Source of the DNA: Cenococcum geophilum
Lineage: Eukaryota
DNA: 64,000 bases
Direction of reading: 5' to 3'
Assembly (NCBI GenBank): GCA_050273025.1
Contig: CP158635.1
Location: forward strand, 248,001-312,000
The notes below the pieces were generated by a model. It had not been told where the DNA came from, made no database searches, and was given only the letters and a program-made list of their open reading frames with translations. This document shows, piece after piece, positions 19,868 through 48,118 of this stretch. The stretch's first letter is position 1. Each line of letters starts with the position of its first letter. Both the position numbers and the translations under genes were made by a program.

Positions 19868-22800
19868 TATATAATTACAGCACCTAGTATACAAACGCGT
19901 ATTTACGCGTTCGGTGTACTAACTACCTATATGCTAACTAATTAGGGGGGAGGCGCGTTAGTATATAGACCACGTAGTCTACCTTAATAGAATTAACAGT
20001 TACCACCATCCTAAAGAGCATACGATACTATACGTATTTCGTGCCCTGGGATATAACTTACTTATACTATTAAGTTAGTATAAACACTGATTAGTAAGCG
20101 CGCATAGATTAGCAATTACTTAATACCTTCCCCCAAGCAATATACGACAGCGACTACCTGTTTAGACTCCTAGTATGACCTACTAAAAGGTTGGAAGCCG
20201 GGGATTACAGAACTATTACTAACTCTATATACTTATTTAAGTCTTAGTACGGTTTACTAAAAGTTTATAGATGTAAATACAGACCCTTACGGAACCCCCT
20301 ATTCTTAACCCCCTTAAACCTTTAACCCCTCCGGACCTTTTACGGAAACCCTTTACCCTCCTATAAACTATTACGGACCTATTAATTGCCTTTACGGACC
20401 ATTATAAGACCTCTTAAACTATTACAGACCTATTAATCGATTTTACAGACCGTTATAAGACCTCCCCTACCCGTTACAAGCTACTACCACCCGCTACGTA
20501 CTATACTATATAGTATAGCAGACACAAGCAAGTAGATTAATAAAGGTTAAGAGAAATAGAGACAAGGAGTTGACCTTATATCTATAACTAACGTTAACAA
20601 CTATATTAAGTACAAAATCCTTAAATACGGATATTTTAAGCTTATAAATAACGACCTATGGGAGTAATATAAGGAAGACTTTATGGACTTTATAGAAGAT
20701 ATTCTTAAAGCTTATAACTTACGAACCCTTTTACGTCACTAAGGTATATAGGTTAAAAAGGATAAACAAGTTACTATTATATGGTCCTTATATAATATAA
20801 TATAAAAGGAGGACTAAACGGAATAGGCTAAAGAGGAAATCCTAAACTAGGTTAAGGTTACTAATAAACTCTTTACTTCTCCTAAACTTAATAGCATTGC
20901 TAGCCTTATATCTAACCTACTTAACTAAATTCGTCCTATAAACCTAAGTAATTTTAGAATTAATCTTACGGGCTAAAGTATACCTAGTACTTAAGTTACG
21001 GACCGTAATACCCCCGTAAACCAAAATATGGACTAAAACTCTCCTGTCGCCTAAGCTATAGATCTATAACCTACCTAAGTTATAAATCTATAACCTACTT
21101 AAGTAAAGACCTATAGTAAGGAGCTAGCTAACTTAGCTAAGCTCTATACTAACGAATCTAAGTATAGCAGTGAAAACGATAACTTTAACTTTAAACTTAC
21201 TATCTTTACGGACCTCTATTGGAAGGCTAATATTCCTAAATAGGAATTTAGCCAAGCCTATTCCACTATACTACGCGGCCTAGCCCTTAACTATTACTAC
21301 ACTAACCTTAAAAGCAACCCCCTTAGTGTTCCCTTTAATAAACTATATAAAGCCATACGCAATTACTTTAAAGGACTAGAATATAAGCGTAATATCTTTA
21401 CCTAATAGAATGCAACTAATTTACGGACCGTAATGGACAAGAACACTAAAAAATCAACTATAAAATGCCTGTAAATCCTTATTAAAGACCTCCGCTACCT
21501 ATAGCACGGTCTTAATATTAAGCTTTAAATAGACGACTTCTTATATAATAAACTTATTATAGCTTGCTAGGAAATAGAACCCTATAAATACGCCTATTAT
21601 AAGCCCGTAGATACTATAGCTGGCCTTATTAACGATTTACGGTCCTTTATTATAATGTATAAAGCCTTAAACCCGCTAGGTAGTACTTAAGCCTTTATTA
21701 TAGACCTGTAAAACCCGTAAACTAACTTAGACGCCTACTTTACGGACCGCCGCTACCGCCGGCAGTATCCGTACCGACTAAGTCCCACCCATAACCCCCG
21801 CAGTAACTCCTGTATAAAAGTATACCCCTATAGACAAACTAGCTAAAAGTGCTTTATATACGGTAAGGAAGGATATTAGTTTATAAAGTATACCTAAAAA
21901 GAACGTAATAAGTCTAAGAAGAGATTTAACAATTGGATTAACTAGTTTATCTTAGACTATAAAGGAAAGGAAGCGGAGGAGTCTCTTAATAAGTTAATAG
22001 AAGCCCTTATAATTGACTTTAACTTAAATACTTAAAAATAAAAGACCTTAGAGATATTCTTAACTACTTACGGACCTTTTATGGATAGCTAAGCCTTTAA
22101 TATTACGACCGTATTAGCCGACTATTCCTTTATACACTTAGTTACGCCTAAAAACTATTCCGTAAGCACCCCCGTTACGGACATTATAGATTATAAGCAG
22201 GACCTATTTGCATATATTACCATAGAACGCTATACCCCTAAGGAATTCTACAGTGTTATAATTAATATAGGTGCCTCTAAGAAGTCTACTATAGGTTACG
22301 GATAATACCTTGTATATAGGAATACTATAAATAATAATACAGACATTAATGTTACGTAAACTAGGGCCATAAACGTCTAGTTTGGTATTGGCTTAACCGT
22401 ATTAATTAGATTAGTAGCAGTTAAGACTCTAATTAGCCTAGTTAACTTCTACGTAGTAAAAGCAGACACCTCTTTCCTACTCTGCCTTATGGATATAGAT
22501 AGGTTATAGGTATACTATAATAATATTACGGACACCCTAATTGGCCCTATAACTGCCCTAGGAAGCAAGCACATTACCCTACTAATTATACAACAATTCG
22601 GACACCCGTTCCTTATATAGGGAGAGACTTTACAAACCTACATTTAGGAATCTTTTAACTATAACCCGTACTACCTTACCAGTACTAAGATCCACCGCCT
22701 ATACCGCCGTTTTAGCTACCTATTAGCCGAAAAGCTATATAAAGTCCTTAAACGCTCTAGATATAACAACGTTAATAGGAAGGCAATTAACCACCTAACT

Positions 22801-25800
22801 AAATACTGCTCCTTCTACCAGAAATACAGACGTTCCCTAGGCCGATTTAAGTTTACTCTTTATAAAGACCTTAATTTTAACCACTTAGTGTACGTAGACA
22901 TTATATATATTAATGGCAGCCCAGTATTATATATAATTAACGAGGTAACCCGCTATTAAGCCGCCCGTTAGTTATAAAATATATCCGTAAAATATACTTA
23001 GGATATTTTATGGACCTGCTAGATTAACACATACGTTAGACCCCCTAAGTATATTACCTATAACACTAGTAGGAACTTTATTAGTAAGGAGTTCCAATAG
23101 TATACTACGGCCATAGCTATTTTAACAAAAGCCGTTCCAGTTAAGGCGCATTAGTCTATTAGGCTTATTAAGTAAGCTTACCTAGCTTTACGGAGAGCTT
23201 ACTAGATTATTATAAACGAGTGTAAGAACATTTAAAAGGAACTAGCTTTATAGATAGCCGTAAAAGCCATTAATAACACCGCTGGCCCTAACGGACTAGT
23301 ACCTACCCTCTTAGTTTACGGAGCTTACCTAAGAATAAGTAACCTAGGCCCTCCTACCCTATCTATTATAGAATGAGCAGCTGTAATATGGAAGGTAATA
23401 GCTAAAATAGTTAAATTACGGGCTAAACAAACTGTTAATAACGCTCTATACTACCGCAACGGACCTAATATAACCCTAGTATATAACCTTCCGCTTAATT
23501 CTAAAGTCCTTATATAGCGTAAGAGCGGCAACTAGACTAGACCTTATTGTTTACTAGCCGTAGAAAACGAGACGTACTACGTATAGCTTCCTAGCGGGCT
23601 AACTAGCTTCAGAAGCACGTCCGTAAAACCCTACTTTCGGCCTAAAAATACCTATAACGCTAAACCAGACAAACCAGAAGCGACTGCCAAATTAGACAAA
23701 CTAGAAGCACCCTTACCTACCCTAGAAGTCCCCTAGAAACCTACTAAACCTACTAAACCTACTATAAAGCGTGGCCGAGGACGCCCCTAAAAGCACCCTA
23801 TAACTAAGAACCCCATAATAAAGAATTACCTAACCTCTACAGGAATATCCGCAAGGCAATCTCCGCCTGCAGATATATTAGTTCTAGTATAGGAAACCCC
23901 TTTTATAGACTTACGACGCAAAGAGATTAACAGACTACTTAAGAAGGGCGTCTTTACGGTTATAATGGAGAAAGACATTCCGTAAGGCGTCCGTATATTT
24001 AACTTACGCTTTATTAATAAAATTAAGCACCCTAGTACTAATAAAACCTTTAAAAAGTCAAGGCTTATTATATAAGCTTATAACGACTAGGGAAAGGACT
24101 TAGTCCTTATATAATCGCCTATAATTTAACGGGTCAGTTAATAGATTATACTTGTGCTTACGCCTAGACTACAGTAAACTAAACCTATAGCCCTTTATTT
24201 ACGGGACATCTTATAAGCCTACGTACAGTCTAATATCTACCTAAGTAGGGACATCTTTATACAACTACCGCTTAAGCTTAATTTATAACCAAAAACAATT
24301 TTATAGGTTATAAAACCACTTTACGGAGTACTAGAAGCTAGAAACCACTGGTTTAAGATGTACTACTAGTACTACATCCGTAAACTTAGGATAGAGCAGT
24401 TAACCTATAACCCCTACCTCCTATACACCCTATTAAACGGCCTTGGTATTATTAGACTCTAAACAGATAATACTCTCTTTTTAGCGGACTAGACTTTTAT
24501 AAATGCTAAAGAAACCGAACTCTAAGAAGCTAAGTTCCTAGTAAAGCCGCGAGAGCAGTTAACTAAGTAAACTCCGATTAAGTTTAACGGAGGCTTAATT
24601 ACATAAAAGGGTAATTTAATCTAGCTAACTTAGGAACGCCAAGCTTAAAACCTAAAGCCCGTTATAGTAAAGCCTACGGACCTTATTAGTTCCCATAAAG
24701 AGACCTATAAGACCGTAAATATAAAGGATTAATACGCTGTATAGCGTGCAAGAGGCGCCTATATAGCCATAGTCTACCAACCTAAATCTATCTACGACTT
24801 ATCCTTTACGGCCTAGGCAGTAGATCCGTAAGAAGAAAATATTAAGCAGCTTAATAAGCGCATTTAATAGCAAATTAATAACGCGATAAGAGGACTTACT
24901 TTTATACCACTAGACCTAAATTCCCTTAGCATAATAGTATTTACGGACGCCTCCTTTGCTAATAACAAAGACCTATTATCATAAATCGGCTTTATAATTG
25001 TGCTTACGGACCGCAATTAGGACGCAAATATACTGTACTAGTCTTTAATTAAGTGTAAACGAGTAACCCGTAGTATACTAGCTTCTAAACTATATATACT
25101 AGCTTATAGCTTTAATATAGCAGCCGTAATTAAATTAACGGTTCAGAAGATTCTATAACTAGAGTAGTTACCCCTAGTTTTATGTACCAATTTATAAGTC
25201 CCTCTACGACTACCTAGTTAAACTAGGTATAATATAAGAGAAGAGGCTTATAGTCGACCTAATGTGCTTACGTTAGGCCTATAAACAACGTAAAATTACA
25301 GAGGTTAAATGGATCAGCAGCGGAGACAATCTAGCAGACGCTATAACTAAGGCAAAGCCGTGTTAAGCCCTTAAAACCCTAATTAATATAAATAAGCTTA
25401 ACCTAAAGGTTATAAAATAGGTAGAGCGAGACTAACGGAGTATTTACGGTTTAGTTACGGCCCGCCGAAAGGCTGTATAGTTTATTTACGGCCCGCCAAA
25501 GGGCCGTATAGTTTATTTTACGGACCGTAAGTAGGACTTACGGCTAGCCTAGAGCACCGTTTGGAAGGCAGCCCAGAAGGCACCTTAGGAGGGATTTCCT
25601 ATATATTTCCTTACGTGTTTTATAGTTTTATTAAGGCAATTACGGAGGCTATATATAAGTGGTTTTATTTTCTAAATACCGCTAGTATATAATTATAGCA
25701 CCTAGTATACGAACGCGTATTTACGCGTTTGGTATACTAACCACCTACGTGCTAACTAATTAGGGGGGAGGCGCGTCAGTATATAGACTACGTAGTCTAC

Positions 25801-25904
25801 CTTAATAGAATTAACAGTTACCACCATCCTAAAGAGTATACGATACTATACGTATTTCGTGCCCTGGGATATAACTTACTTATACCATTAAGTTGGTACA
25901 AACA
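19868..25904 (+). mobile_element. Element D: full-length Ty1/Copia LTR retrotransposon (GalEa-like), RIP-degraded
   Basis: 219-bp LTRs at 19868-20086 and 25686-25904; TSD ACTTA at 19863-19867 and 25905-25909; domain order gag-protease-integrase-RT-RNase H. Confidence 0.95.
20515..25435 (+). pseudogene. gag-pol polyprotein relic of element D
   Basis: Integrase Zn finger (HRRF.H...KYCSF.QK) at ~22700-22825; KPLYGV.EA.NHWF at ~24313-24355; RT L(Q)TD(D)TL at ~24457-24477; RNase H DN.ADA.TK at ~25325-25351. Confidence 0.88.
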
Positions 25905-26549
25905 ACTTATAACCTAGTTCCCTATTAGTAAATTCCTTTAATATAGTGGCTTTATAACCCTAAATAACCAATATAACCAATAATAGAGACTTTAGCAACT
26001 AAATTATTGGCTATAATAAGTTTTAGGGCAGATAGACTTTTTAGAGCTTCTTATACTGCTAAATAAGAAGCCTAATAATAAGTTTAGAAAAAATAAAAAG
26101 GAGAAGCACCTAAAACAAAAGATGCTTTTAAAAGTGGCTTAGCTTATAGTACCAATAAAGTATAATATAGAATAGTATAACGCAATAAAAGAACTATATA
26201 TAGAAATACGTAGCGTAGGCAAACTAATAATTATATATTTTTATAACTAAAACAATTAATAGCGGTAAAGGTAAAAGGCAACTATATTTTCGGCCTAGTT
26301 AACCTACCGCCCTTATATCTATACTAGCGATACCAGAACTTATAGGGAGGTGGCCTTAAATATCCTATCGCAACTTATAGAAGAACTAATATAATATTAG
26401 AAATACTTTCCTAGGGGGTTAAATACTATCTCCTAAGGTAAACGAAGTTAGTATAAGACTGTAGATATATTAGGGTAGGTAGGATAGGCTAACTTTAGGG
26501 GGGAGGGGGGAGGCGTTTTACGCGGTAACTACTAAATCCTAAACGTAGC

Positions 26550-26635
26550 GCACTACGACCACCAAATTATAGACGCCTTTATACTATAACCGCTAAATTA
26601 TAAACGCCTTTGCACTACAACCACCAAATTATAAA
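26550..26635 (+). repeat. 31-bp tandem repeat, ~2.8 copies
   Basis: Unit GCACTACGACCACCAAATTATAGACGCCTTT at 26550, 26581 and 26612, preceded by a G-rich tract at ~26498-26513. Confidence 0.85.
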
Positions 26636-28400
26636 TATGCTAAAAATTAGAGCCGCCGCTTATAGTTAACGTAGTAATTACTGCCTCTTTTAGCTAAGTA
26701 TATTTTAATCCAAATCTAAGATTTAATATAGTCGCTATCCCGTAATTAAAAATTAAATAAACTAGCAATTACAAATAAGGATTAATATCTATAAGTAAAT
26801 ATCTAAGTAACACTAAGTTATAACTAAATCCGGTATATAAAACTCTATAATATCTAGGAAATACTAATCAATACCAGCTAACGACACGGTTAAATAGCTG
26901 CTATTAAATAGAAAAGGTTATATAAAAATAAGTCACTGCCTTACTCCTAAGCAGTTAAATTAGAAGAGACAATTTATATTAAAGGTAAGTAATTCTAGAA
27001 ATAAGGACTATCCCTAAATATATTAGTATATAATAAGTCCCGCCTCTAATCCTTCTTATAAGTTAGGCATAAGACTTAAAGACTAGGTTTAATTAATAGT
27101 TGCCTTATATATATAAGAGCTGTCCGCCTCTTTAGGTACACTATTAGGCTAACTTATATTTTAAGTGCATATATATAGAGTAGACGCAGTAATAGATTTA
27201 GTGCTTTTTAGTTATTAAGCCTTCGTTATACTAATACTCTAAATTAAATAAATACTCTATAGAACTAAAACAAGGTTAGTAATATATATATAGCTAGATA
27301 ATTACGGGATACTAAGCTAAATACTAGAAAATGCTATTTTAAACGGTAATAAATAACTCCGCTGTAAATGTTTTTTAGCAGTTAGATATAATATACTAGG
27401 TAGTTATATATCTAGTATATAGTAATAAGAACTAAGAATATATTGCCAAATATATAATATATAAGGAGTGCCTTATTATTAAATAAATAAAAGCTTGATT
27501 AGGGTATAGGTTATTTCTTAATTAAATTTTACTTTTATTTATATGTTTAGTTTTCTAGTTCTTTTAGCATTAGTAAGGCAACTAGCCCTAAATTTAAATC
27601 GCGTTATATAAAGGTTAAGATTTTCTTTAGGTTAAAGATATAAGTTCTCTTACCCTTAAAGTCTATAGATACTAGGAAAAGTAGTCGCTAGACCTATTTA
27701 ATAAGAACTCTACCTATTTTATTTTATAGCTTCTATAAGATTAAGGTATCGTAGTCCTTAAAGGTGCAACTAATATTATTCCAAAGTGGCCGCAAATTAA
27801 GGAGAATAAGGTTATGCCAGTTTCCTTTTCTTTAAGGAAAAAAAGCTCTGCTTGCTAATACCTTTAAAGTTTATAAATACCCTTATTAGTTTTGCTAGAG
27901 ATAGTGGTTTTTACGTCTTATATATTAAAGAATATAACCTCCCTAAATATGCCTCACTTTAGCTTAGATAATTACCGGATTAAAAATAGCTAGCTAATAA
28001 TACCGATATTATTGCTATTAGTTGCTATTACCTTAGAGGAGATATTAATTAGAGATAGATTATATAGTATAACCTAGCCCTTTAAAAGGAAGAGACTAAT
28101 AGAATATTTATTATTAAAGTATGCGGAGGGGATATATAAGTAATTACGCCCACTAATTAAGCCAGCTCTTATTAAAATTAGTATTATTTAAAATAGGTAA
28201 CTAAGATAATTGAGTCTAACTCCTACTATTAGAGAAGGGAAAATAATAGTAGTTTATTATATATAGAATAGAAATAGGCCCACTTAATAAGTAGTAAGAT
28301 GCAACTAGTTTGCGTTATTTAAAATATATTTTATCTAATCTCTTTACTAAAAGTCCTAAAATTGTGCTTACTAACCCTAGCCCGCTCCAAACATAAGATC

Positions 28401-30150
28401 CTAAAAGGGAATATTAGCGGCACAAGGTTTCATCCTAAATTTAAAAATATCCTTATTATAACCTCCTAGTTTGCTTACCGGAAACTCTATATACAGAGCC
28501 ATATATTTAAAATCTCCTTTAATACCATTTCTACTAAACCTAACCGTAACGGTACTTGGTAACCCTAACCTAAAGTCCCTTTTAGCTTTGGGTTTAATAG
28601 GGGAATTAGTATATAGATTTATAGTAAATCTAAAACCCTTTTTAGCAGCGCTCGGTGCTATAAAGAATTTAAACACCCTTTTACCTTCTTATAGTTTAGG
28701 TTTAATCGCACGTAGCGCAGTGCTTAGTGCTATAGTAAATTTAAAGTCTTCTCTTGTAAAAGACATTGGGATAGGCATCTAAGTGCTATCTTCGGCTTTT
28801 AAAGTTAAGAGGCCTATTTTAGCGCTTAAAGAAATACATTCTCCTTAGCCACAGCTATTAAAGCTAGGTTTTGGCAAGTCTATATAAGGTATATAAATAG
28901 TAGAGCCTTCTGTTTATTTTATTTAATTGCTAGCCTCCGCTGGTTATAAGTCTATATCTCTATAAGCATTTCTAAAATAATATAATCTTATAATATAATC
29001 TTCTTAATATACGTTATAAATAGTATAAACATTTAAGTCCGCGATAAAGCTTCTACACTATAAGCTTTCCGCTTATATTAATAAAGACTAGTAAAAGAGT
29101 TAAATTAGTAGCTATACGGTAGACACGTATCCTAATTAAGATAACGCTTTAGGGTCTTATGCCTAAACCCCTCTAAAGTTTTAATATGCTTATAATATAA
29201 ATCTAAACGCTAGTAACTTCTATTGCAATCTTTAATAGGATAATCCTACCCTCCTTTTAACTTTAAGGGTTAAAAATGCCTAGCTCCTATATAATACTTA
29301 AGGGCAAGGGTATAACTGGTAACGGCCTTAATAAAGGCGACTTTATCTACTTATATTGTGGGCGATAGCCTAAATATCTTCTTTAAAACACTAACTTACG
29401 TATTAAGATCTCTATACAATATAAATTAACGGTATAATTATAGGTTAGCATCTTTTCTCTTTAATAGATATTAACGTTTAGCAGATCGGGGGTAAGGTAG
29501 AGATGTTTCTACGGATGCATTTATTATATATATTAGTTTCTTTATAAATATTAGTATATATACCATCTATAGCGTATAAAGAGCTACTTACTTCAATCCC
29601 GTTTAAAAGCTATTAGATATATTTAACGGGTAGGCAGTTAGTAGAATATTATAAGTATACATACTAAGGTTTACCCAGCTTATATCTAAGGTCTTACTAT
29701 TTAGGAGCCGTTCCAAAAATGCTTTATTAGAGATAGTTTGGCTTCTTTACCTTAAATGCTTATTTATAGTATATTTATAAAGAAGAGAGTTATATACGCC
29801 CTTTGCTAGCATTATATAGCCCCCTTCGCGTTTATTAAATCATTTCCTCCTTTGCCTTTTTATGCATATTTAAGTAAGCCTCTTAATTTACTATATCTTT
29901 ATAGTCGCCTAAAAGAAAATTTTATATAAGCTTTTTAGGCCTCTATATAGACCTATAGAGGCGTACCGTAGTTTTTATTAAGCCTATATTTACTATAATA
30001 GAAAATTAGTTATATATTAATAGCTTAGGTATTTACTTTTATATTACAATAACGTTTACTAAATATCTTTTCTGTATCTTCTGGTATTTTATATACTAAA
30101 CTCTTACAGTATAGCGGAGATAAGAACACTTATAGTGAACTTAAATATAA
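28401..30150 (-). pseudogene. RIP-degraded gene(s) of unknown function (candidate cargo); boundaries uncertain
   Basis: The 91-aa ORF 28401-28676 extends upstream for at least 80 more codons if TAA/TAG are read as RIP products. An intron-like GTATGT...CTAAC...TAG segment lies at ~29610-29665. Confidence 0.4.
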
Positions 30151-31402
30151 TTATATATTGCTAGTAGCAAATAAAAGGGAATGAATATTAAAGGATATTA
30201 AATAACAGTAATAAAATTAAGCATTTTATTTTTAAATAAAAAGGATTACGGATTAAAAGAGCGTATATCGCTTTAAGCGTTAGAAAAGTAGGGTACCTAA
30301 GATCTCCGTTATTACTAGAGAGTATTAAGAATTAATAAAGTATTTAGGAGCTTGTATTATATAACACCGTATAGGGCCCTCTAAACAAATACTAGATAAG
30401 TAATAAGTATATCCTCCCCACTATCTTAAGCTACTAAAATTTATTACTAATACTATTAAATCTAGTACGCCTATTATAATTAGATTAGATCTTAATATGG
30501 GGCTCCTTATACTAGTGCTTACGGTATAAAGCGTTTATAATTGAGTAGTCCCAATATAAAAGCATCTATAATATAAAAGTGTAAATAATTTAGTAGTTAC
30601 AGTATAAAGGCGTCTAGAATTCGGTAGGCACTATAAGCTACTAAACTATTTAGGGTTCCACTATAATTTAGATAAGAGCTAATTAAGAAGCTAATATTAC
30701 TTTCTTTCCTTAATATTATCCCGGATATAATCTAAGCTAAATTACAAGAGATCCTTAAGGTTAAATAACCTAAGCCTTATTCTGCGACTCCCTATATTTT
30801 ATAAGCCTTAGATATAATTATTTAACAGGCTTAGTAGAAGCTAATTAGATTTATCCCTAAAGCTTATTGCCTATTTAAGAAGATAAGCCGTCTTAAAACT
30901 AAAACAATTTAGGAGTATATATACTCTAAATAATAGTAATAAGCATGGCGCGTGTTCCCTATAAGTATTATAGGTAATTAATATACCCCTTTTTCCTTAC
31001 TCGCTCCTTCTACCTATATAACGTTTTCTAGATAGAGAACTCTCTAAAACTTCTAAAGGTTTAGCTTAGCAGTCCGCTCCCTAATAGTTAGTCTTTTTAA
31101 CTTTTTATATTCTACTCTCCTACTATCTAAAACGCGAAATAGTAGGACGCCTTATACTTTAAATAGAGAGAGATTTAGGGTTCTATATTAGAAATGCTTA
31201 TATTATTACATTAATTATTAATACGTCGGATTATTCCATATATAATATTAGTAATAGCATTATGTTAATACATAGAAACTTTATATCTTACCTCCTCTTA
31301 GTAGTTTATATCTTTAGTTCTATATATTTCTGTATTTTAGACTCTATTAATATTGCATATAAACTTAGCCGTCTACTTTTAACCACTAACTGCCGTAATA
31401 AA

Positions 31403-31918
31403 ATGGAAATAGGTAAGCAAAAGGATACTCTGCCCTATAGTTATTAGAGTTAACAGTTTACCTATAAAGGGGCAGCTACTAATTTGGAAAATTTATATAT
31501 ATAACTATAAAAAGTATATAAAAAGTTACTCTTAAGCGGAGTACTTAAGGCGACACTAACAATCCTATAGGGCTCTACTATATTTAACCGTAGTATATAT
31601 TCCTAACTCTTATAGACGCTAAAAAGCTAACCCACTATTACAATAAATGCCCTAGGGTTTTCTTTTAAGGTGACCTCCTTAAAAGATATAAGGAGCGTTA
31701 TAGGGCAAGGGCTATTACTAGCTATACTTAAGACTTGCAAATCTAAGTGCTAAGCTTAAAGTGGAGAATAAGATTACTACTAAGTAAAAATCCGTGCCTT
31801 TAATGCTCCTTTAAGAAACTTAGGTGTAATAGTAATAGCAATAAACTTTACCTAAGATACTTGCTAGCGGGTTTATAATATATTTGTAAGGGGAGGCGTA
31901 ACTAGGCGAATCTCCTAG
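31403..31918 (+). pseudogene. RIP-degraded ORF of unknown function (candidate cargo)
   Basis: A frame of ~125 codons (31538-31918: GVL.ATLTI...NALGFSF.VTSL...VIGQGLLLA...) is interrupted only by RIP-type TAA/TAG stops. Confidence 0.35.
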
Positions 31919-32225
31919 AAGTATTAAAAGAGGCTAAAAAACTGGTAGAAGAGATAAATAGGAGAATAACAGAAAATAAAGAGGATAAATTAATACTAGA
32001 AGTTCGGCTCTACTTTCTATTTTTAGATTTGTTACAGAGTAAGTATAAGCGACGATAATATATAGCAAGGTAGATATTATTAAGCTATATACATAAACTA
32101 TATAAGGAGGTTAAAACGTTGCGTAAAAAAAGAAGGTAGGAAAACGGGAAGAAAGGGCATATATTGTTAACTTAGTTACTTAGTTAATACGTATATAGGG
32201 TAAAATAGGGTTTAGGTTATAGTCC

Positions 32226-32325
32226 TAGTAAAACTTAATAGAATTTAGTAGAACTTGGCAGAATATAGTAAAATGCCGTAGATTGCTGTTAGATTGCTAT
32301 TAGATTCCTATTAGATTGCTATTTT
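32226..32325 (+). repeat. Short tandem arrays of 10-bp (GCAGAACTTG-like) and 11-bp (AGATTGCTGTT-like) units
   Basis: About 5 degenerate 10-mers followed by about 4 11-mers. Confidence 0.75.
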
Positions 32326-33028
32326 ACAGTTAGTCTCTAATTGCTAAGTTAATGGAAATAGGTAGATGTGTATAAGGTGTTACAGGGGTGTCCCGTAATA
32401 AGATTTATCTATTATCCTATTTTCCTTAAACTCCTTAGCCTTATTTAAATAACTACATTACCCGGAACTAAAATTTCTCTTTAAAAGCATCTCCTGGTAC
32501 TGGATTTGCTTATATTTAGGGTTTTCTAGAATATCGCCGTACGGGTGCGGCCACGTAAGGGATAAGTATTATAGCAATACAGAGCATAGCTAGGCTCCTT
32601 TAGGTTTTATACTTCCACTATAGATTTATAATAATACTGTATTATATACCTCTTCGGTTACTTCTTAGTATTATTCTTTAGTGCTTTTAGCTGATTTTAG
32701 TACGTATAAACCCTCTATAATATGCGTAAAATGTTAAATAAATATCTAATATACTAGGAGAGTTCCCTCCACTAATAATAAAGGATGGTGAATTATTTCC
32801 TAAAAGATATTTTGTTAATACTAATAATATTAGAGTTATATAATTTTAAGGTATTTTAAATATACTAAAGCATTATATAATTACTCTTTACACTAGATCC
32901 TATTAATTTAGGAAATGTATTTTATCTACTAGGCTTTATATAGTAGTGTATTTATAAAGTTGTTTTTATTAGTCTACTTAATTAGTTAGCGAATTATTAG
33001 TAAGGAATATAGTATCTTTAAGACTTAT

Positions 33029-36000: not shown

Positions 36001-37050
36001 TTGTTAATGGATCGTTTGCAAACAATAAAGATTTTAGCTCCTAGCTAGAATATGAGATTATTATAGCGAACGAATCTACTGGAGAGAATGACTTCACGAT
36101 CTATGGTAATCTTATTTATTAGAGCTTAACTAAGAGTAAACGCGTTACTTAAAGCGTTCTAGCGTTAGAGATATATGGAATAGTTGGTGGAGTTAATATG
36201 GCAATTGCAATTGGAACTACCCTTAAGATAATTATAGATTAACTTAAACTTCCTATTATCCCTATAATCGTATGCACTAACTTATATTCCCTTTATAAGT
36301 ATTTAGTTAAGCTTGGTACCATAAAGGAGAAGCGCCTTATAATTAATATTATGGTACTTTGGCAGTCCTACGAGCGTTAAAAACTCTTTAAAATCTAATA
36401 GATTAATAGCTAAGATAACCTGGTAGATATAATGACGAAGGTAAACCTAAATAAGGCACTAGAGACGTTTGTTAATATAAATACTCTATATATATGAGTT
36501 AAAGGTTAGGTTAAGAGGGAAATTTAGAGAAGTTAAGATCTTATAGAACTTTAACCGCCGGTTAAAGTTGTCTAATTGGTTAGATTCTTGCCAAGAGCGC
36601 CATACCTAATTAATTCGGGTGGCGGTGTGGAGTTCTACTAACGCTATTTATTAAGCTGGCTAATTAGGATTTTTTATCCCCGGGATAGAAAATCGCCATT
36701 GGCTTGGCTAAGAGCGGTAAGCGGAACTAACATCTTTGCACGAACCCGTATATCTACCTATACTACCTCTTCCCCTTTATTTCTTCTTCTTCTTCTCCTT
36801 AGCTTTGTATCTTTATATAGTAGCAATCTATAAGTGTATATAAATGGTAACTATAAAAGAAGAGTTGCTAGTGTTAGGAATGAGGCAAGCGGTTATTACG
36901 TGTCGTCACGTGTCGCCGCGGCACTAGCGTGGTAAGGAACCTTAGGTTCCTCACCTACCCCCTAATTCTAAACAATAAGCTTTATTAACTAACATTACTG
37001 TAACCCTACTTAAGTAGTCGTTATTGGTGAGTCACCCTGTGTGACCAATA
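33029..37050 (+). mobile_element. Element C: internally deleted Ty1/Copia (GalEa-like) LTR retrotransposon
   Basis: 179-bp LTRs at 33029-33207 and 36872-37050; TSD CTTAT at 33024-33028 and 37051-37055. Gag, protease, integrase Zn-finger and RNase H relics are present; integrase core and RT are missing. Confidence 0.93.
33600..36527 (+). pseudogene. gag-pol relic of element C with a deletion at ~35940
   Basis: CYVCEK..C at ~35016-35043; GIMPDT at ~35413-35430; LHRRF.Y at ~35815-35835 then KYC..; jumps to F(V)(D)GSFANNKD at ~36000-36033 and DN.(A)D.MTK at ~36415-36440. Confidence 0.85.
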
Positions 37051-37454
37051 CTTATAAAACAGTTAACTAAGAATTTAATTAGTGCCCCTTATCTAAAAAG
37101 TATAATTATATTCTTCTACTTTATGGCGATCCCTTTTAACATATTAGGAGGCGTATTTTATCACTAAGCCTCTTAACGTAAGTATAACTTTATAAAATTT
37201 TGGATAAGATTAATTAGCTAGTTAAGGTATACTATCCATAAGATCCCTATCTATTCTATTAAATACTAAAATAGAATTGGATAATAGATTAATAAAATAA
37301 ATAAAAAGCGACAAAGAATAATAAGATTAGCGTATAATAACTAGGAAAAAGTTCTATATATAAGGAACGTATAGTTTTAAATTTACTAGTTATATACCTT
37401 TTTATAAGTACCAGAGGGTCAGTATAGGATCCTCGCATAGGTAAGGCAACTTAC

Positions 37455-39964
37455 CTAGCGATACCTCTTAATTGGATGCCATACGCTATATATAAGGGCT
37501 ACGTAATTTTTAAAATACTTAAGTCCTTTAATCCACTTTAAGTAATAAAGATGCTTATAGTAGAACCCTTACCTAAACACTCCTTCTATAATATAATTAT
37601 TAAGATACTTTAATAGTGTATCCTTCTTTATAAATAGGCGGGTCTGCCTTAGTATTAAGAGTTAGTTATTACCGATATAGATAAGGTAAATAAGATTAGT
37701 AAATGTTATAGAATACAGCAGCTGTATCTTCCTTAATTAGGACCGCGCTCCGCGTCTTATTTAGGTTTTTTTTAAAAAGGCAAGTCTAAGCTAATCTATT
37801 CTTCTACCGCTTTGCCTATTAATAGGTACTAGTATTAGCATTACTTACACCTCTTTTTACGCCTATTATACTTTAATCTACTTTAAACCTAAGTTAAAAT
37901 CTAATAGCCTTGCTTAGGATCCCATTCTACTAACTCTCTTATTAATTATAATACTTAACAAGATTGCGGATAAACTTTATATAGAATAACTTAGCGTATC
38001 CTTCTTTAAGCTTATTTAGCGGCTAAGACAGTAGTTTAGCAATAGCAGCACGTTTATAAAATTTATACTATACAGCTAAACAGGTAGGAATTTCCGTCTC
38101 ATCGCTACTACTAAGCTATCTTTTAATATTGTAATTATTAATAGTGTTATAAAAATTAAGAATAACCTAGTCCTCTTTTTGTTTACGTAGGACGTTTATA
38201 ACACTATAAAGTTTGCATTTAGCTTTATTATAACAGTTATATAGTTTTTTTCCCTTCGCGGTATTAATAGGGTAATATCCCCAGCTCCTAATCTTTTGCT
38301 TATATTGCTCTTATTTTTCGTAAAACTGCATAATATTAGGGTGTTAATTAAGTTTTAGCTAGAATTTAAGCTTCTACTTATTAGTTAGACCTATAGGGGC
38401 CCGCTTATCCCTTAAAATCCCTATCTATACGGTATATTAAATAAGGTTGTTCTATAATAAAGTCCTAAAGTAAATTAACTAGAAATTTCGCTTAATTAAA
38501 TTAGGTAAATAAAACCGTTAGTAGGTATTACCATAATAACATATTATCTAATTTCGCTCTTCTAAAGTAAGGGCGCCTAGAAAACTTAGTTAATATATAT
38601 ACTTATATTAAATTAGATACTTACTATTTAATTTCCTTTTAAACGCTTATTATAACTAGTAAAGTTTAAGCGATTATTTAAACCTGGCTACTAGGCCTAA
38701 CTATATATAGTAATCGCGGCATTTCTAGTAAGCGAATGCTTTAGTATCCGATACTCCCCTATAACTAGCCATTGTCTTAATATCTTAAAAGATGGGTCGT
38801 TTCACTATCTCCTTCTTAAGCTTTTCTTTAAGACTCTCTTTTTTTCGCTAGGATTTTAAGTTAAAAAATCTCCCCCGGTAAAATATAATGGCGTTAAAAT
38901 ATATTATCCGCAATAGTAAGGCTTATAAGATAGAATAGGATATAAAAAGCTAGAATGCTTTTAAGATGGAAAATAAACCTCTTACTATAGGTCTACTAGC
39001 GCTATTCGCGCCATCTTTAATTAACGTCGCTATATACCATCTGTCTATGCCTCTAGAATTCTTAATATATATAAGACTTACGAGCGCAATAGTTATAGTT
39101 TAATTAAAGTTTTTCGTATCGCGAACTTTTAGGATTGTAATATATTTATATAAAAGCGCTTTATTAGAGCCTCTTACGCTTAAACTTTTAATAAAAGCTT
39201 AGGGTCTTATTGCCGTAGCACTAAAGAAAAGGAGGATTGCTCCTATCTACACTTAAAAACGACTATAGTAAGGCTTTACGTCCATTGTTTAATAGGCATT
39301 AATAATTATATACAAGTCCTATATATATATTGCCTCCTTTTCTTTCTCTAACGTGTCCAGCTTATATCTTAGCGTTAAGTAGATTAAAATCCACTGTAAC
39401 AAATTAGCTAGGTTTTTTTTTTTAAGAATTAAAGATTACCTGTATTTTGTATATTAAGTTCTACACTATTATTTATACTGTGGCCTACTACATCTATAAA
39501 TTTACATAGTATTCGTCTTTAGTACGCCTAGATTATACTTTTCTTTTTAATTTAAGAATTCTTTACGCGCTATTTAAGGTATGTTTTAAATATATCGGCT
39601 ATATACTAATAAAGGGCCTTGGTTGGGTTAGACTTAACTTTTAGGTAAAACCTAAATATAAATTTTTAGTATTATAAGGTAAATTTTTATTTAAATACAA
39701 GCGAACTTTTTTTTATTTTAAAACTTATACTTAACAAAAGAAGTAGACCAGGGCTTCCATTTTAACTTCGCCCTTCCTTAATCCTTATAATATACAATCC
39801 TCTATTATAAATATTCCCCCCTTAGAATTGGCGTCTTCCCTAGCTCTAGAGTTAGAGTTTAAATCTAAGTCTAAAGCTGGCTTAAAATAAGACGGCTTGC
39901 CTAGTTTAGAGTCTAAGCTAAAGGCTAGATCTATATTTTACCATTTCTTACTTTAAGAGGGCAT
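37455..39964 (-). pseudogene. DUF3435-type tyrosine recombinase (Starship captain-like), RIP-inactivated, about 4 introns
   Basis: Manual minus-strand translation with RIP reversed gives an acidic N-terminus, then FKTYLEWRVKNSRIKKES, YELDTSEKEKEAMY, ATA.RP.A.IES, LELYQLRRAS, GALT.EERNQIMCH.GDTY.RFY, NFQSIYFG, RDKRAPTGLT and C-terminal HFKNHAALVHGV. These are motifs I recognise from fungal DUF3435 proteins. GT-AG introns at ~39653-39706, 39394-39439, 38985-39037 and 38577-38624. Confidence 0.82.
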
Positions 39965-42900
39965 GGTGGTTAAACGCGTAATATCTTAGTACTTTAGTAG
40001 CTATAATTGCCTACACGCAGAAGCTAGCTTAAGAGTGACTACTGTTAATAGGAACGCTAAAAAAGGCTCTATAGGAGATTGGCGTTCTTAAAAGCGGGAT
40101 AAGGTAAAAAACCCTATAGGTAAAAACCTAGAAATTAAGTATTAGAAGTAAACAATATAATAATAGGGGAAATATATATATATAGCTACTATGGGAAAAG
40201 GGTTAAAGGAGCATAGTGTAGAAGGGAGGTTTTATTATATAAGGGTAGTGCTTTTAGCGGAGGATAAGGATAAAAGTAGGCGGCGGACGTCTATAGCTTT
40301 TTAAATAACGTTAGCCGCTAAGGGACGTTTAGGGAGCTTTAAGAGGTACATTATAGGGCTATATGCGCAATTCTAGGTTTAATAGGTAAGTAAGGGAGAC
40401 CCTACTATCCTTAGCATACTTAGTATATTATAAAAGCGGTAATAGATATAGGTTTAAGCGAGGAGAAACTACCTCCTAAAACGGGGGAGAGGAACCTCTA
40501 AATCCGGCTACGTCTTCCCCAATAACAAGATTCTTAAAGTAATATCTAAGTATTAAAATCTAAAACGGTTTAGCGGTATAAATATAATATCTGCTATTAC
40601 TCGTTACTATATAGTAGACTCCTATATAGGGTATATTACTTCTCCTTCCTATTTTATTTATCGCTCCTAATATTATAGGTATAACTTAATATACTATAAT
40701 ATCTAATCCTATAGCCCTACCTACTAGTATTAATTTAAGATTCTTTAATATGTTCCCTTTTATTTATAATATCCGCTTTAATTATAAAGGCTTTAAAAAA
40801 AAAGCAACTTGGAAATTATAAGGTAATAATATAATGCTTAACTAAGTGCTTCCTATAATAGGTATTTTAATTAAGTATATAAATAGGGCTTTAGTACGTC
40901 TATTATTATGGCTTATATAAATGCCTTATTACGAAATAAGGGTAGTAGCTATAGAGCGTATATATTTAAGGAGTTTATAAAACGTTACGTAATTAATCAT
41001 AAGGGTTAAGGGTGTAAGGAGGTAATATACCTACGCGTAGCTGATATAAGCTATACGTAAGGTATACGCAAAAGCACGGGGCTCTCCTATAGAGGCCCCT
41101 GCGGTAGGGTTCTATAATACTACCCCCCCTTCTATAGAGGCGGAGCTCCGGCGACGCTGTAGTTACTATATATATATAGAAGGGACACTTAAGGTATAGA
41201 AAAGAAGAAAGGGGGGTATTACTAAAGGTTTTAAAATAATGTTATATAATAAGGCTTGGCATCTAAGAATCTAACCAATTAGATAACTTTAACCGCCGGT
41301 TAAAGTTCCTAAATATCTTAACGATATTCTAGACACATAATCGCACTTTACTGCAATTTAACGGCAATTTAACAGTAATTTGCCCTTACGTGGCAATATA
41401 TAACGGTTTAACTCTATATAGGCTTCTATAGAGGATTAGGTATAAAATCTCTACTTAGGCCCAGTTTCTATAGGTTCGCGTAATAAAAGTTGCTAATTAA
41501 ATCCTTTGCATTTTTAAAGTCTTCCTATAGTTACCATTCTGGCTAATCTATATTAAATCCTGTGTATATAGCTCTATAGTAGAGCCATTATCCTCTACCT
41601 TTACTAAAGTATTTAGAGTTAATAATTTATTTAACAGTCTACTTCTTATAGTTCTTATCTTTATTCTTATCTTGGATTAGTACTAATAGGGGTTTAGGCT
41701 ATATTTACCCTAGTAAGGGGTTAGGCTAATAGAGGTATAATAGCTATAGGTAAAATATAGGCTATATCCCGTAGATAGCTAGGGTAGGTAAAAGTTTTAG
41801 CTTATATACGGCTCCCCTATTAATAACTTATTTAATTAAATAGGGGCTAAGGTTTTTATAATTAAGTGACTTTATAGGCCTCTGCGTAGAGATATTATAT
41901 ATATTTAGCTATACCTAGTTGCCAATATATATCTCCAGTAGTGGCGTTTTATAGCAGTTAATAAAGTAGGCCTACTTTGCTTAAGCCTAGGCCATTTCTC
42001 CCTTATAGTAGTTAAGTAGATTTTTTATACGGTCTGTATACTAGTCGGTAAGTAGTATTTTAAGGCGTTTTCTATATAGCAGCTTCTTATTAATAGGTTT
42101 TAGTAGCTCTATACCGGATTAGGGGTAATAACCCTTATTTACAAAGAACGGGGTAAGTCCTATAGTGGTTAAGACGTAGTTATTCACTATAAATTTACCT
42201 AGTAGGAGGTAATCTACCTAGTTATCTTAACTAGAGGCGACTACCTATTATAGGTACGCTTTTATACTAGTATTAGCGTTTTCCGGTTACCTAGTAGTTT
42301 TATAGTAAAAGGATATAGATATCTTAACGGAGATACTAAAGTATTAGTAGATTTGTCTCTATATATTAGAGTTAAATTATATACCTTAGTTAGACGTAAT
42401 TAAGTTAGGTAACCTATATAGTCAGTAAACTTTATAGAGAAAGGCGTTAGTAATATCGCTAACAGCTACACCTTTAGATGGGATATAGTGGCGCTCTTTT
42501 ATAAGTCGGCATATTATTATAAGGATGTTCTTATAGGTACAGCCATATCGTTTATAGGGTGGTAGGTTAATAATAAAATCTATAGTAATATCTGCCCATT
42601 ATTATATAAGTACTAGTAAAGGGTATAGTAGTCCTTAGTATTTTATATTAAAGGCCTTAGCGCGCTTATAACTATAGCAGGCGCCTATAAAGTATTTAAC
42701 TAAGTTTATTATTTTTAGCTAGAAGTAATATCGGCTAAGAAGCTTATAGGTTCCTTCTCTACCTAAATAGCCACTTAATTAGAGGTTATAGGCCATTTAA
42801 ATTAGTTACCGTTGTAGATTTTTTAAGTTAGGGATAAATAGGCAACCTTTATAATGGAGCCTGTTCTCTTTTACTTTTAAGGCTGCTATATTAATCTAGC

Positions 42901-43379
42901 CTAAGCTTTAGAGGTTAGTAGGTAGCGTATTACGGCACTAGCAGAAAACGGTAGAACTTAGTAGTAGAACTTGGCAGAACTTTGCGGTTACGTAACTAGA
43001 GGACCATATAAAAGAACCCTACTTTAACCGGCGCTGCTCTTCTTCTCCTTTCCTTTCTCTAGCTTTATATTTTCGTTTATAGACAATCTAATTATATAGG
43101 CTTACGCGACCCCCTTGCCGTGCTTATATCTTAATTAATTAAGTCGCTAACATTATCTAAAGCTTTAACCACCCTTTCTTCCTAAGAAGGAACTTAAGAA
43201 AATATCTATAGGACTATAAATAGGACAAGGACACAGAACAGGACCCTAAGGACATTACTAGAACTACAAGAATAGGACTAAAAGAAAAAGGATAAAACCT
43301 TAAGGAAAGGACCTATAAGACACGCACAGACTAGAACCCCTAAAGAAATTACCTAAAATTACCTAATACCCCTACTACT

Positions 43380-47300: not shown

Positions 47301-47946
47301 ATAAGGGTATCGTTATCTCTACTAGGGACGTTATCTTTAATAAAAAGATGTTCTTTAATAGTAAGTAAATAAACATCTTAAAGAACCTATACGCTAAATT
47401 AGACACGCTAATTAAGGAGATTTAACTCCTTAATAACTAGACTAAGAATAAGGTCCTTTTAGAAGATAATAAAGAAGTATTTAAACCGTTAATTTAAGAG
47501 GAAGATAACGACGTTAATAAGCTAGTTTAAACCTTTAATAAGTTAGCAGACCTTAAGCTTATAAGAGCTCTTGAAGATATATATTATACGCTACCTCTAA
47601 TAAAAGAAGATGAAGAATCTGTTAGATAATCTGTATTCTCGGTGGCGTAAGACGTGCACGGGCCACGTGCACGGGTCACGTGTATTGTAAATATCTTCGT
47701 CTAAGCCCAGGGGCCCCAGGTCAAGCAACCATCAAGACACGATTAAGATCATCAATCAATCAACCCATTTCATCAATGAATAGCTCTATATAAGTTATCT
47801 GACAGTTATAAGCCCGGTCCGCCGACACAAGAAGCTATTTAGCTATTACTCAATCATTTGAAGAGATTCTACCTCATCGTCAGACTCTAACACCTCATCG
47901 TATCAAGACGACCCTGATTGAAATCCTACCTCAATTGTCACAGGAC

Positions 47947-48080
47947 GAGATTCCACGAGATTCCACGAGATTCCACGAGATTCCACGAGACTCTACCTCA
48001 ATCGTCAAAGGACGATCCTGACGACAAGGACGATCCTAACAACAAGGACAATCCTGCGACAAGGACGATCCTAACGACAA
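47947..48080 (+). repeat. 5'-leader tandem repeats of family G (10-bp GAGATTCCAC x4; 18-bp AAGGACGATCCTGACGAC x4); also at ~44645-44770
   Basis: Directly visible tandem units in both G1 and G2. Confidence 0.9.
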
Positions 48081-48118
48081 AAAATACCATCTCAATTCCC
48101 CCTTTACCTATCAGTCAA

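What the first reader, a model, noticed from the sequence alone, without database searches (positions are those of the whole stretch)
37455..39964. Hidden RIP-killed DUF3435 tyrosine recombinase: relic of a Starship-like giant element
Seen: a 2.5-kb minus-strand gene that the ORF track misses. It has four GT-AG introns, and its exons translate to motifs such as WRVKNSRIKKES, LDTSEKEKE, YQLRRAS, ERNQIMCH, FQSIYFG, RDKRAP.GLT and FKNHAALVHG once RIP changes are reversed. Established: DUF3435 tyrosine recombinases are the 'captains' at the 5' end of Starship transposons in Pezizomycotina, and RIP acts on duplicated DNA. Inference: the non-LTR DNA of this window is a once-multicopy Starship-like element, with its 5' end somewhere in ~40000-40850 or beyond element F, later colonised by Copia C and D.
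Basis: partly seen in the sequence, partly recalled or inferred. Interest (0 to 1): 0.85.

Follow-up and report, generated by a model that had tools for sequence, protein, structure and literature searches.

The report
RIP-killed Starship captain gene with its 5' end
This is the mutated wreck of the recombinase gene that drives a Starship-type fungal transposon, still attached to the transposon's front end; it is a known kind of fossil, unusual only because the family once reached dozens of copies.

Summary
On the minus strand, 39964-37455, lies a dead DUF3435 tyrosine-recombinase gene. With stops read as X, Pfam gives 42.5 bits against a cut-off of 25.8. The best relative is a 738-aa fungal protein (E 7.5e-76). 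The damage is RIP-type: 28 of 47 stops lie opposite Q, R or W, and E>K, D>N, V>I and H>Y dominate the substitutions. Only 2 of the 4 claimed introns are supported. One frame change is a 1-nt indel, and one candidate intron could not be tested.

A full-length relative is listed as a Serenity-family (fam04) Starship recombinase in the starfish paper. Three intact relatives on metagenome contigs share a ~108-nt block, and in the two long ones it lies where AT-rich flank turns into GC-normal DNA. The window has that block at 40537-40431 (the single outlier, z 6.7). It is preceded by ATTACT, which fits the ATWHCT direct repeat published for the Serenity-family Starship Sanctuary. So the 5' end is at about 40537.

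Contigs of four isolates give roughly 30-60 copies of the gene region. Two LTR elements inserted later, each with a perfect 5-bp duplication.

Not shown: the 3' end, any cargo, or giant size. About 10-12 kb can be traced. This scan noted a similar dead recombinase relic on other DNA (e1-7579055).

The parts
37455..39964 (-). RIP-inactivated DUF3435 tyrosine-recombinase (captain) pseudogene, from ATG 39964 to stop 37455
   Evidence: Pfam PF11917, 42.5 bits. phmmer best hit 7.5e-76. tblastn of P0001 residues 68-667. 49 stops in 728 codons of the homologous frames.
39444..39662 (-). N-terminal homologous segment (first reading frame), holding K*RVKNS*IKKKS
   Evidence: tblastn: P0001 68-136 and P0047 155-227.
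39394..39439 (-). Intron-like interruption 1 (GTAATC...CTAAT...CAG) at the frame change. The phase does not close in this copy.
   Evidence: Frame switch between the tblastn segments. P0007 reads through an insert at the same place. Coordinates.
38101..39246 (-). DUF3435 domain core in one frame, including AIRP*A (TRPGA box), Y*L**AF (YQLRRAS) and ERN*IICYYGNTY (ERNQTMGHxGSTY)
38577..38624 (-). Intron-like interruption 2 (GTAAGT...CTAG, 48 nt, in frame)
   Evidence: 16-residue insert relative to P0001. P0008 and P0004 carry read-through inserts there. Coordinates.
37458..37715 (-). C-terminal Cys/His motif (VCLICIG...HxxxH in relatives) with C>Y and H>Y changes. It is reached by a 1-nt frame shift near 37715.
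   Evidence: tblastn: P0017 E 3.6e-14, P0031 E 7.6e-14 (66% identity), P0013 1.5e-11, P0002 5.3e-11.
40431..40537 (-). Conserved 5' subterminal block of the element. The element's first base is about 40537, 573 nt upstream of the ATG.
   Evidence: RIP-tolerant scan of both strands of the window: 89 of 108, z 6.7, next best 76. blastn to L002 and L005, E 3e-4 each. RIP-tolerant local alignment to L005 starts at 40545 / L005:9196, score 71 against a shuffle maximum of 43.
40538..40543 (-). ATTACT hexamer just outside the block, a candidate 5' direct repeat
   Evidence: 4 of 4 sequences (window, L002, L005, L010) carry an ATWHCT match starting exactly 12 nt before the conserved ATCT. The background frequency is 0.0046 per position. 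The ATWHCT/ATACCT repeat of Sanctuary was read in PMC12506042.
33029..37051 (+). The target duplication CTTAT lies at 33024-33028 and 37052-37056.
   Evidence: LTR pair, 91% identical. Duplication read. Paralogous contigs join 33022 to 37050 without it (X1 2, X5 2, X6 4 contigs). Pfam did not confirm Copia (0 families).
25910..33023 (.). RIPed DNA of unknown content, contiguous with the gene's 3' side before the 33029-37051 insertion. It is moderately repeated and is the possible element body.
   Evidence: Summed word depth 500-1400 in X1, with 6-26 distinct contigs carrying the other letter per site. 0 Pfam families in 6 frames. No second copy in the window.
31992..32400 (.). 409-bp very high-copy insert within that DNA
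   Evidence: The joint 31991>32401 skips 409 nt in X1 and X5 contigs. The bin 31973-32639 has depth 61,000.
19868..25904 (+). LTR retrotransposon (my label B) with target duplication ACTTA (19863-19867 and 25905-25909). It marks where the traced non-LTR DNA is interrupted again.
   Evidence: LTR pair, 94% identical. Duplication read.
40544..42927 (-).
   Evidence: Integrase_H2C2, E 4.7e-5, 23.8 bits (below the 25.5 cut-off), at ~42823-42656. tblastx to the retroelement that abuts the L005 element. Depth 90,000 in bin 40644-41300.

Best explanation
The locus is the front end of a Starship-superfamily transposon, closest to the Serenity family, that RIP has destroyed. The minus-strand gene once encoded the element's captain, a DUF3435 tyrosine recombinase that cuts and rejoins DNA at the element's ends. 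The element begins at about 40537, directly after an ATTACT hexamer. A conserved subterminal block follows, and the gene's ATG lies 573 nt further in. The gene reads into the element, towards lower coordinates.

The family reached tens of copies in this fungus. Duplicated DNA is what RIP acts on, and RIP then riddled every copy with C>T and G>A changes. That explains the 48 premature stops and the loss of the RR and GH catalytic-region residues here. Later, two LTR retrotransposons and a 409-bp repeat inserted into the dead body.

Shown: the gene's identity, the RIP damage, the multicopy state, the 5' junction by homology, and the later insertions. Inferred: that the ~10-12 kb of unrecognisable DNA downstream is the element's body or cargo, and that the element mobilised cargo as its relatives appear to.
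For: Identity: Pfam DUF3435, 42.5 bits. 171 phmmer hits, best 7.5e-76. All 12 long relatives scanned carry DUF3435 as their only family above the cut-off.

Family: relative P0010 (KAF2845010.1, E 1.6e-30 to the window) is listed as a 'tyr' gene in Table S3 and as fam04 in Table S4 of PMC11162782. [quoted passage not shown]

RIP: indices; 28 of 47 stops opposite Q, R or W; transition-type substitutions.

5' end:
- In L005 and L002 the gene is the first thing after a jump from 25-31% GC, ORF-free DNA to 45-50% GC DNA with ORFs.
- L002, L005 and L010 share a block that starts at that jump, while their upstream flanks are unrelated.
- In L005, retroelement integrase homology runs up to 9205 and the block alignment starts at 9196.
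- The window holds the block once, in the right place and orientation (89 of 108, z 6.7).
- The ATWHCT hexamer is in register in 4 of 4 sequences. It matches the direct repeat of the Serenity-family Starship Sanctuary.

Copy number: and the C. geophilum fragments on three different contigs of 24-34 Mb.

Later insertions: perfect 5-bp duplications.

Cargo in relatives: an 856-aa ORF with a HET domain and an ORF with a CHAT domain lie 4.6-8 kb downstream in L005. Nuc_deoxyri_tr2 and RING ORFs lie downstream in L002. The interrupted retroelement of L005 does not resume in the next 12.8 kb.
Against: - No 3' end, 3' repeat or empty site was found, so mobility of anything beyond the gene is not shown.
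- No Pfam family was found in 25905-33025, in 17800-19870, or elsewhere in 37056-42927 apart from the gene and the integrase. No DUF3723, ferric reductase, patatin or NLR relic was seen.
- tblastx found no similarity between the window's downstream DNA and the downstream DNA of L005 or L002.
- Tens of copies is unlike the low copy number expected of Starships (PMC11162782 introduction).
- Depth over 25970-31972 is two to three times lower than over the gene, so many copies may lack that DNA.
- Depth stays moderate at 40593 and 40644, outside my 5' end, which I cannot explain.
- The L010 local alignment (score 50) does not beat its shuffles (maximum 52).
- The family assignment is by proxy through one relative. 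The other relative I could look up (P0047) is 'n.d.' in Table S4. No tree was built.
- The window's gene is only about 35% identical to any intact relative.
Confidence: 0.72

Rival explanations
1. A small multicopy DUF3435 transposon of about 3-4 kb that carries only its recombinase. The DNA downstream (37400 and lower, 25910-33028) would be unrelated repeat DNA into which it inserted.
For: Tens of copies suits an ordinary transposon better than a Starship. Depth differs between the gene region (2100-3100) and 25970-31972 (500-1400). Nothing recognisable lies downstream. The starfish paper notes that Family 11 recombinases have no known cargo-mobilising element, so captain-like genes without known cargo exist.
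Against: In L005 and L002 the GC-normal, ORF-bearing DNA starts at the conserved block and continues for at least 10 kb beyond the gene. The retroelement interrupted at the L005 junction does not resume within 12.8 kb. Paralogous contigs run contiguously from 37194 across the insertion site of the 33029-37051 LTR element to 32881, and over 37086-37384. The repeat therefore continues at least 570 bases past the stop codon.
Confidence: 0.22
2. A Crypton-type tyrosine-recombinase transposon.
For: It is multicopy and recombinase-encoding. DUF3435 repeats were at first annotated as Cryptons in the M. phaseolina repeat library (PMC9156397 methods passage).
Against: The hit is to Pfam DUF3435. PMC9156397 reports that DUF3435 captains form a clade apart from Crypton recombinases, and the starfish tree uses CryptonF as outgroup. 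Relative P0010 is filed in Starship fam04.
Confidence: 0.03
3. A single-copy host DUF3435 gene damaged by RIP spreading from neighbouring retrotransposons.
For: The gene sits between two LTR elements in a wholly RIPed 64-kb window.
Against: Up to 31 distinct paralogous contigs carry the other letter at single sites of the gene in X1, and 5-53 in X13. Close RIPed fragments come from three other large contigs.
Confidence: 0.02

Closest known systems
Sanctuary, a Serenity-family Starship of Bipolaris sorokiniana (PMC12506042; abstract and passages read)
   Same: A DUF3435 recombinase sits at the 5' end. A 6-bp ATWHCT sequence lies immediately upstream of that end, and the window has ATTACT there. 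The Serenity family is linked to TE-rich regions (PMC11162782).
   Different: Sanctuary is 170-196 kb and intact, with empty sites and a 3' ATACCT repeat shown. Here the copy is RIP-dead, the family has tens of copies, only ~10-12 kb can be traced, and no 3' end or cargo is seen.
Degraded or 'derelict' Starships, such as Derelict of Macrophomina phaseolina (PMC9156397, passages) and the derelict Horizon of Parastagonospora nodorum (PMC12506042, passage)
   Same: They are old Starship copies decayed in place, invaded by retrotransposons and RIPed. The starfish paper recommends the word 'derelict' for RIP-inactivated copies.
   Different: Derelict regions were recognised by surviving cargo or accessory genes after the captain was lost. 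Here the captain relic and 5' end survive and the cargo is unrecognisable.
The starfish catalogue entry for Cenococcum geophilum 1.58 (PMC11162782, Tables S3, S4 and S8)
   Same: The closest RIPed fragments of this gene are C. geophilum proteins. The catalogue lists 37 recombinase genes for that genome, many short 'tyr' fragments, and family calls that include fam04.
   Different: The catalogue found 0 elements with boundaries there. This locus supplies a candidate 5' junction and a copy-number estimate. I did not establish that the window comes from that genome.
CryptonF DNA transposons
   Same: They are tyrosine-recombinase DNA transposons of fungi, small and multicopy.
   Different: Their recombinases lie outside the DUF3435 captain clade (papers). 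The features of Cryptons themselves are recalled and were not tested here.

Membership tests
Starship superfamily | Encodes a DUF3435 tyrosine recombinase (captain) | tested here: met
   PF11917, 42.5 bits against a 25.8 cut-off, with stops read as X. Best phmmer hit 7.5e-76.
Starship superfamily | The recombinase falls inside the Starship recombinase phylogeny and not with CryptonF | tested here: inconclusive
   By proxy only. Relative P0010 is 'tyr', fam04, in Tables S3 and S4. Relative P0047 is 'tyr' but 'n.d.'. No tree was built because no reference captains were at hand.
Starship superfamily | The captain is the first gene at the 5' end and reads into the element | tested here: met
   The conserved terminal block lies at 40537-40431, 573 nt upstream of the ATG, in the gene's orientation. 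In L005 and L002 the same layout sits at the composition boundary.
Starship superfamily | Direct repeats at both ends and an empty site in another genome | tested here: inconclusive
   A 5' ATTACT hexamer that fits ATWHCT is in register in 4 of 4 sequences. No 3' end was found. No joint links the 5' flank to a 3' flank, but only 15 of 146 joints were shown.
Starship superfamily | Mobilises cargo beyond the captain gene | tested here: inconclusive
   About 10.2 kb of contiguous, moderately repeated DNA follows the gene (12.1 kb with 17938-19867). It gave 0 Pfam families. The scan is insensitive: two LTR elements gave 0 families at E<=0.001 in their three plus-strand frames.
Starship-like region in the sense of Gluck-Thaler et al. 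2022 (PMC9156397) | DUF3435 co-located with DUF3723, ferric reductase, patatin-like or NLR genes | tested here: not met
   None was found in 17800-19870, 25905-33025 or 37056-42927, with the sensitivity caveat. A HET-domain ORF lies downstream in relative L005 only.
Starship superfamily | Large size (smallest on record 15,020 bp) and low copy number | tested here: not met
   10.2-12.1 kb was traced, with the end unknown. Tens of copies by contig count and depth. The size and copy statements come from PMC11162782 passages.
Serenity family (fam04) | Resides in TE islands, with a 5' ATWHCT repeat as in Sanctuary | tested here: met
   The window is wholly RIPed TE DNA. The flanks of L005 and L002 are AT-rich. 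The hexamer is shown. Papers.
Crypton | A Crypton-type recombinase outside the DUF3435 clade, in a small element without cargo | tested here: not met
   The recombinase is DUF3435 and its relative is filed in a Starship family. Element size is undetermined.

The most novel reading that the evidence does not exclude
A Serenity-family Starship lineage that broke the low-copy habit of Starships. It multiplied to dozens of copies inside the retrotransposon islands of a very repeat-rich ectomycorrhizal fungus, always entering TE DNA at ATWHCT sites, and RIP then silenced it wholesale. If so, Starships can behave as ordinary proliferating repeats and add to genome expansion. The conserved ~108-nt subterminal block, with its repeated CCG(C)TTTTRG motif, would be the first candidate captain-binding end sequence for this poorly resolved family.
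Probability: 0.35. Interest if true: 0.6.

Novelty: new member of a known kind. Interest (0 to 1): 0.45.

Why it matters
Starships are known and RIP-inactivated copies are known. A public catalogue already lists many recombinase fragments in the fungus whose proteins are closest to this gene, so the find is not new in kind.

It adds two things. First, it gives a base-level candidate 5' junction and a conserved end block for Serenity-like elements. The authors of the starfish paper say they could hardly delimit this family because it sits in TE islands. Second, it gives evidence that such a lineage reached tens of copies, against the expectation of low copy number.

Both points are testable on the available chromosome-scale assemblies. 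If they hold, they would help to annotate Starships in repeat-rich genomes, where present tools return none.

Tried and rejected
- Whole-genome search: no genome is held for this window.
I then scanned smaller pieces with stops as X.
- Pfam control: the plus-strand frames of the two LTR elements with target duplications gave 0 families at E<=0.001. 'No cargo domain' is therefore weak evidence, and I could not confirm that they are Copia.
- Self-comparison of the window found no second copy of the gene or of its downstream DNA.
- blastn at E 1e-5 between the window locus and the metagenome loci gave nothing (script stopped on empty output). Looser settings gave 55-70% matches.
- tblastx found no shared cargo with L005 or L002.
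- A search for an inverted copy of the 5' block on the plus strand gave only background (maximum 76 of 108), so no long terminal inverted repeat is seen in the window.
- The target duplication of the large LTR element 4090-17937 could not be settled.
- MAFFT alignment of the window with relatives over 39900-40330 was uninformative because the range missed the block.
- The upstream extension of the L002-window alignment beyond 40546 is gap-ridden, and I did not trust it.
- RNA: no RNA holder was listed for the stretch.
- 'Serenity' does not occur in the stored part of the starfish supplement, which was cut when stored. The family's published elements and repeats in Table S13 could therefore not be seen.
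- Earlier notes of this scan hold nothing for this genome.
Full report
**What is there**

The whole 64-kb window is AT-rich, RIP-mutated fungal DNA. In all sixteen 4-kb blocks TpA/ApT is 1.54-1.96 and (CpA+TpG)/(ApC+GpT) is 0.26-0.57.

I read the minus strand of 37300-40100 with every stop as X. One of the three frames hits Pfam DUF3435 (PF11917) at E 5.4e-11 and 42.5 bits, above the 25.8 cut-off. The match covers window ~39246-38101 and profile positions 28-366 of 418, and it recurs.

A full HMMER scan of 1.84 billion representative proteins with that frame gave 171 hits at E<=1e-3, 58 at <=1e-10 and 9 at <=1e-30. The best is P0001, 738 aa, E 7.5e-76, aligned in one stretch. P0001 is a Coniosporium apollinis protein. 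Other long hits come from Plenodomus tracheiphilus, Apiospora and Halenospora. All 12 long relatives I scanned have DUF3435 as their only family above the cut-off. They share a C-terminal Cys/His motif.

**Gene anatomy**

tblastn places the relatives as follows:
- P0001 residues 68-136 on 39650-39444.
- P0001 residues 133-667 on 39405-37699, in a second frame.
- The C-terminal motif of P0017, P0031, P0013 and P0002 on 37715-37458, back in the first frame (E 3.6e-14 to 5.3e-11).

Two intron-like interruptions are supported.
- 39439-39394 lies at the first frame change. Its phase does not close with canonical sites in this copy.
- 38624-38577 is 48 nt, runs GTAAGT...CTAG, is absent from P0001 and is read through in P0008 and P0004.

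The second frame change, near 37715, happens within about eight codons, so it is a 1-nt indel and not an intron. A third candidate intron at 39731-39652 rests on my reading only. The claim of four GT-AG introns is therefore not confirmed.

**The damage is RIP**

The three homologous frames hold 49 stops in 728 codons, one of them the natural stop. In the alignment to P0001, 28 of 47 stops lie opposite Q (12), R (11) or W (5). Another 4 lie opposite gaps and 15 opposite other residues. The commonest substitutions are E>K 18, D>N 14, V>I 11, H>Y 10, T>I 8 and R>K 8. All of these are C>T or G>A changes.

The RR of YQLRRAS is now two stops, and MGHH is IICYY.

**Which family**

P0010 (KAF2845010.1) is the second-best full-length relative, at E 1.6e-30. 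Table S3 of the starfish paper (PMC11162782) lists it as a Starship recombinase gene, and Table S4 lists it as fam04. Table 1 of that paper names family 4 Serenity. [quoted passage not shown]

The more distant P0047 is listed as 'tyr', with family 'n.d.'. These are the 2 relatives I looked up in Table S4. The assignment is by proxy, because I built no tree.

**The 5' end**

A scan of metagenome contigs with an alignment of relatives returned 12 loci, two of them with long context.
- In L005 (gene at 10001-12009) and L002 (gene at 6632-8563), the DNA upstream is 25-31% GC with no ORF of 110 aa or more.
- The gene and at least 10 kb downstream are 45-50% GC with ORFs. These include an 856-aa ORF with a HET domain, a CHAT-domain ORF, a Nuc_deoxyri_tr2 ORF and a RING ORF.

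L002, L005 and L010 share a block of about 108 nt. It begins where the composition jumps, while the sequences upstream of it are unrelated. In L005, homology to a retroelement integrase runs up to 9205, and the alignment to the window starts at 9196.

I scored both strands of the window against this block, allowing C>T and G>A. One position stands out: 40538-40431 on the minus strand, at 89 of 108 and z 6.7. The next best of about 128,000 positions scores 76. Other comparisons:
- Ordinary blastn finds the same place (L002 and L005, E 3e-4 each).
- RIP-tolerant local alignments score 71 for L005 (shuffle maximum 43) and 73 for L002 (shuffle maximum 44).
- L010 scores 50, which does not beat its shuffles (maximum 52).

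The block lies 467-573 nt upstream of the ATG. Its spacing from the gene is similar in L005.

In all four sequences, a hexamer matching ATWHCT starts exactly 12 nt before a conserved ATCT. The hexamers are ATTACT (window 40543-40538), ATTACT (L002), ATACCT (L005) and ATATCT (L010). The motif's background frequency in the window is 586 matches in 128,000 positions.

The Sanctuary paper (PMC12506042, passages read) reports a 6-bp ATWHCT immediately upstream of that Serenity-family Starship's 5' end, and ATACCT as its 3' repeat.

One observation does not fit. Contig depth stays moderate at 40593 and 40644, just outside this end, and rises to very high values only beyond.

**Copy number**

I laid Logan contigs of four isolate runs on 21301-41300 at 80% likeness or more.

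| Region | Summed word depth in X1 |
|---|---|
| Gene region 37309-40643 | 2100-3100 |
| 25970-31972 | 500-1400 |
| LTR-element bins | 30,000-135,000 |

Single contigs listed there have depth about 25-48. At single sites of the gene, 3-31 distinct X1 contigs and 5-53 X13 contigs carry the other letter. That points to roughly 30-60 copies of the gene region and about 10-30 of the downstream DNA. These are estimates and not counts.

In X1, 3494 of 3798 differing places are transitions. That figure covers the whole 20-kb stretch, LTR elements included.

Independently, three close RIPed fragments (72-84% identical) are Cenococcum geophilum proteins on three different contigs of 24-34 Mb. Table S8 of the starfish paper lists 37 recombinase genes and 0 delimited elements for that species. 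Table S3 lists many short fragments. A chromosome-scale genome paper on that species mentions Starships only in its reference list.

Near-identical pieces in X5 (31071-31349, 2 differences) and X6 (32369-32740, 2 differences) show that this very locus is shared between isolates.

**Later events**

Paralogous contigs join 33022 to 37050 without it.
- The LTR element at 19868-25904 (my label B) is flanked by ACTTA on both sides.
- A 409-bp very high-copy piece lies at 31992-32400.

With these removed, the gene's 3' side continues into 33028-25910. It may continue further into 19867-17938. That makes about 10.2 or 12.1 kb from the 5' end.

**What is not shown**

I found no 3' end, no 3' repeat, no empty site and no cargo. 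Pfam gave 0 families in six frames of 25905-33025 and of 17800-19870.

That negative is weak. The plus-strand frames of the two LTR elements, which must once have encoded gag-pol, also gave 0 families at E<=0.001.

tblastx found nothing in common between the window's downstream DNA and that of L005 or L002. The smallest Starship in the starfish survey is 15,020 bp, and Starships are expected to be low-copy. On both counts this element is atypical or incompletely traced.

A small captain-only transposon therefore remains a live rival at about 0.2. Two things weigh against it. The layout of L005 and L002 does not fit it. In L005 the interrupted retroelement does not resume within 12.8 kb.

**Verdict**

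'Giant' and the extent of the element are unproven.

This is a new member of a known kind. It has two modestly useful extras: a candidate end sequence and junction for Serenity-like elements, and a copy number far above what Starships are expected to have.

Noticed in passing
L005:1-9205 compared with window 11237-17945, 42251-42895 and 60296-61229: The AT-rich flank of metagenome locus L005 consists of the same LTR-element families as the window (70-80% at the translated level, collinear over 6.7 kb). L005 therefore comes from a close relative of the window's organism. Yet it carries an intact, un-RIPed captain homologue (~35% identical to the window's) followed by HET- and CHAT-domain ORFs.
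   Followed up: partly
window 40431-40537 (minus), 40560-40573, and L002/L005/L010 blocks: The conserved 5' block holds a short motif repeated two or three times, of the form CCG(C)TTTT followed by purines. One more copy lies just outside the proposed end, at about 40573-40560. These could be recombinase-binding repeats, or a sign that the true end lies further out.
   Followed up: no
window 40593-40644: Contig depth just outside the proposed 5' end stays moderate (1118 and 1939 in X1, with 25-28 contigs). It does not jump at once to the ~90,000 of the bin 40644-41300. I have no explanation for this. The flank may itself be a moderately repeated target, or the end may lie up to ~100 nt further out.
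   Followed up: partly
window 31992-32400: A 409-bp very high-copy insert lies inside the moderately repeated DNA. Paralogous contigs skip exactly this piece, with 33 other letters in its place. Its nature (solo LTR or small non-autonomous element) was not determined.
   Followed up: no
window 606-1500: There are arrays of a 12-nt tandem unit (AGTAGAGCTTYR-like), 22 copies in register at 60-88% identity to the reference, next to a second 12-nt repeat family.
   Followed up: no
window 42928-60066: A 17-kb LTR-bounded block (LTRs 94% identical) is inserted in the Gypsy-like element. It contains internal tandem duplications: 44333-47620 against 47624-50935 at 86%, and 50929-53238 against 53251-55548 at 88%.
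   Followed up: no
window 19868-25904 and 33029-37051: Pfam with stops read as X found no family at E<=0.001 in the plus-strand frames of two bona fide LTR retrotransposons, although integrase-, RT- and RNase H-like strings are visible by eye. Domain scans of RIPed DNA in this window are therefore insensitive.
   Followed up: yes
proteins P0002, P0006, P0013, P0016, P0017: Many database relatives are gene models of 335-395 aa that start at the MGH motif just after intron 2. Automatic annotation seems often to miss the first two exons of these captain genes.
   Followed up: no
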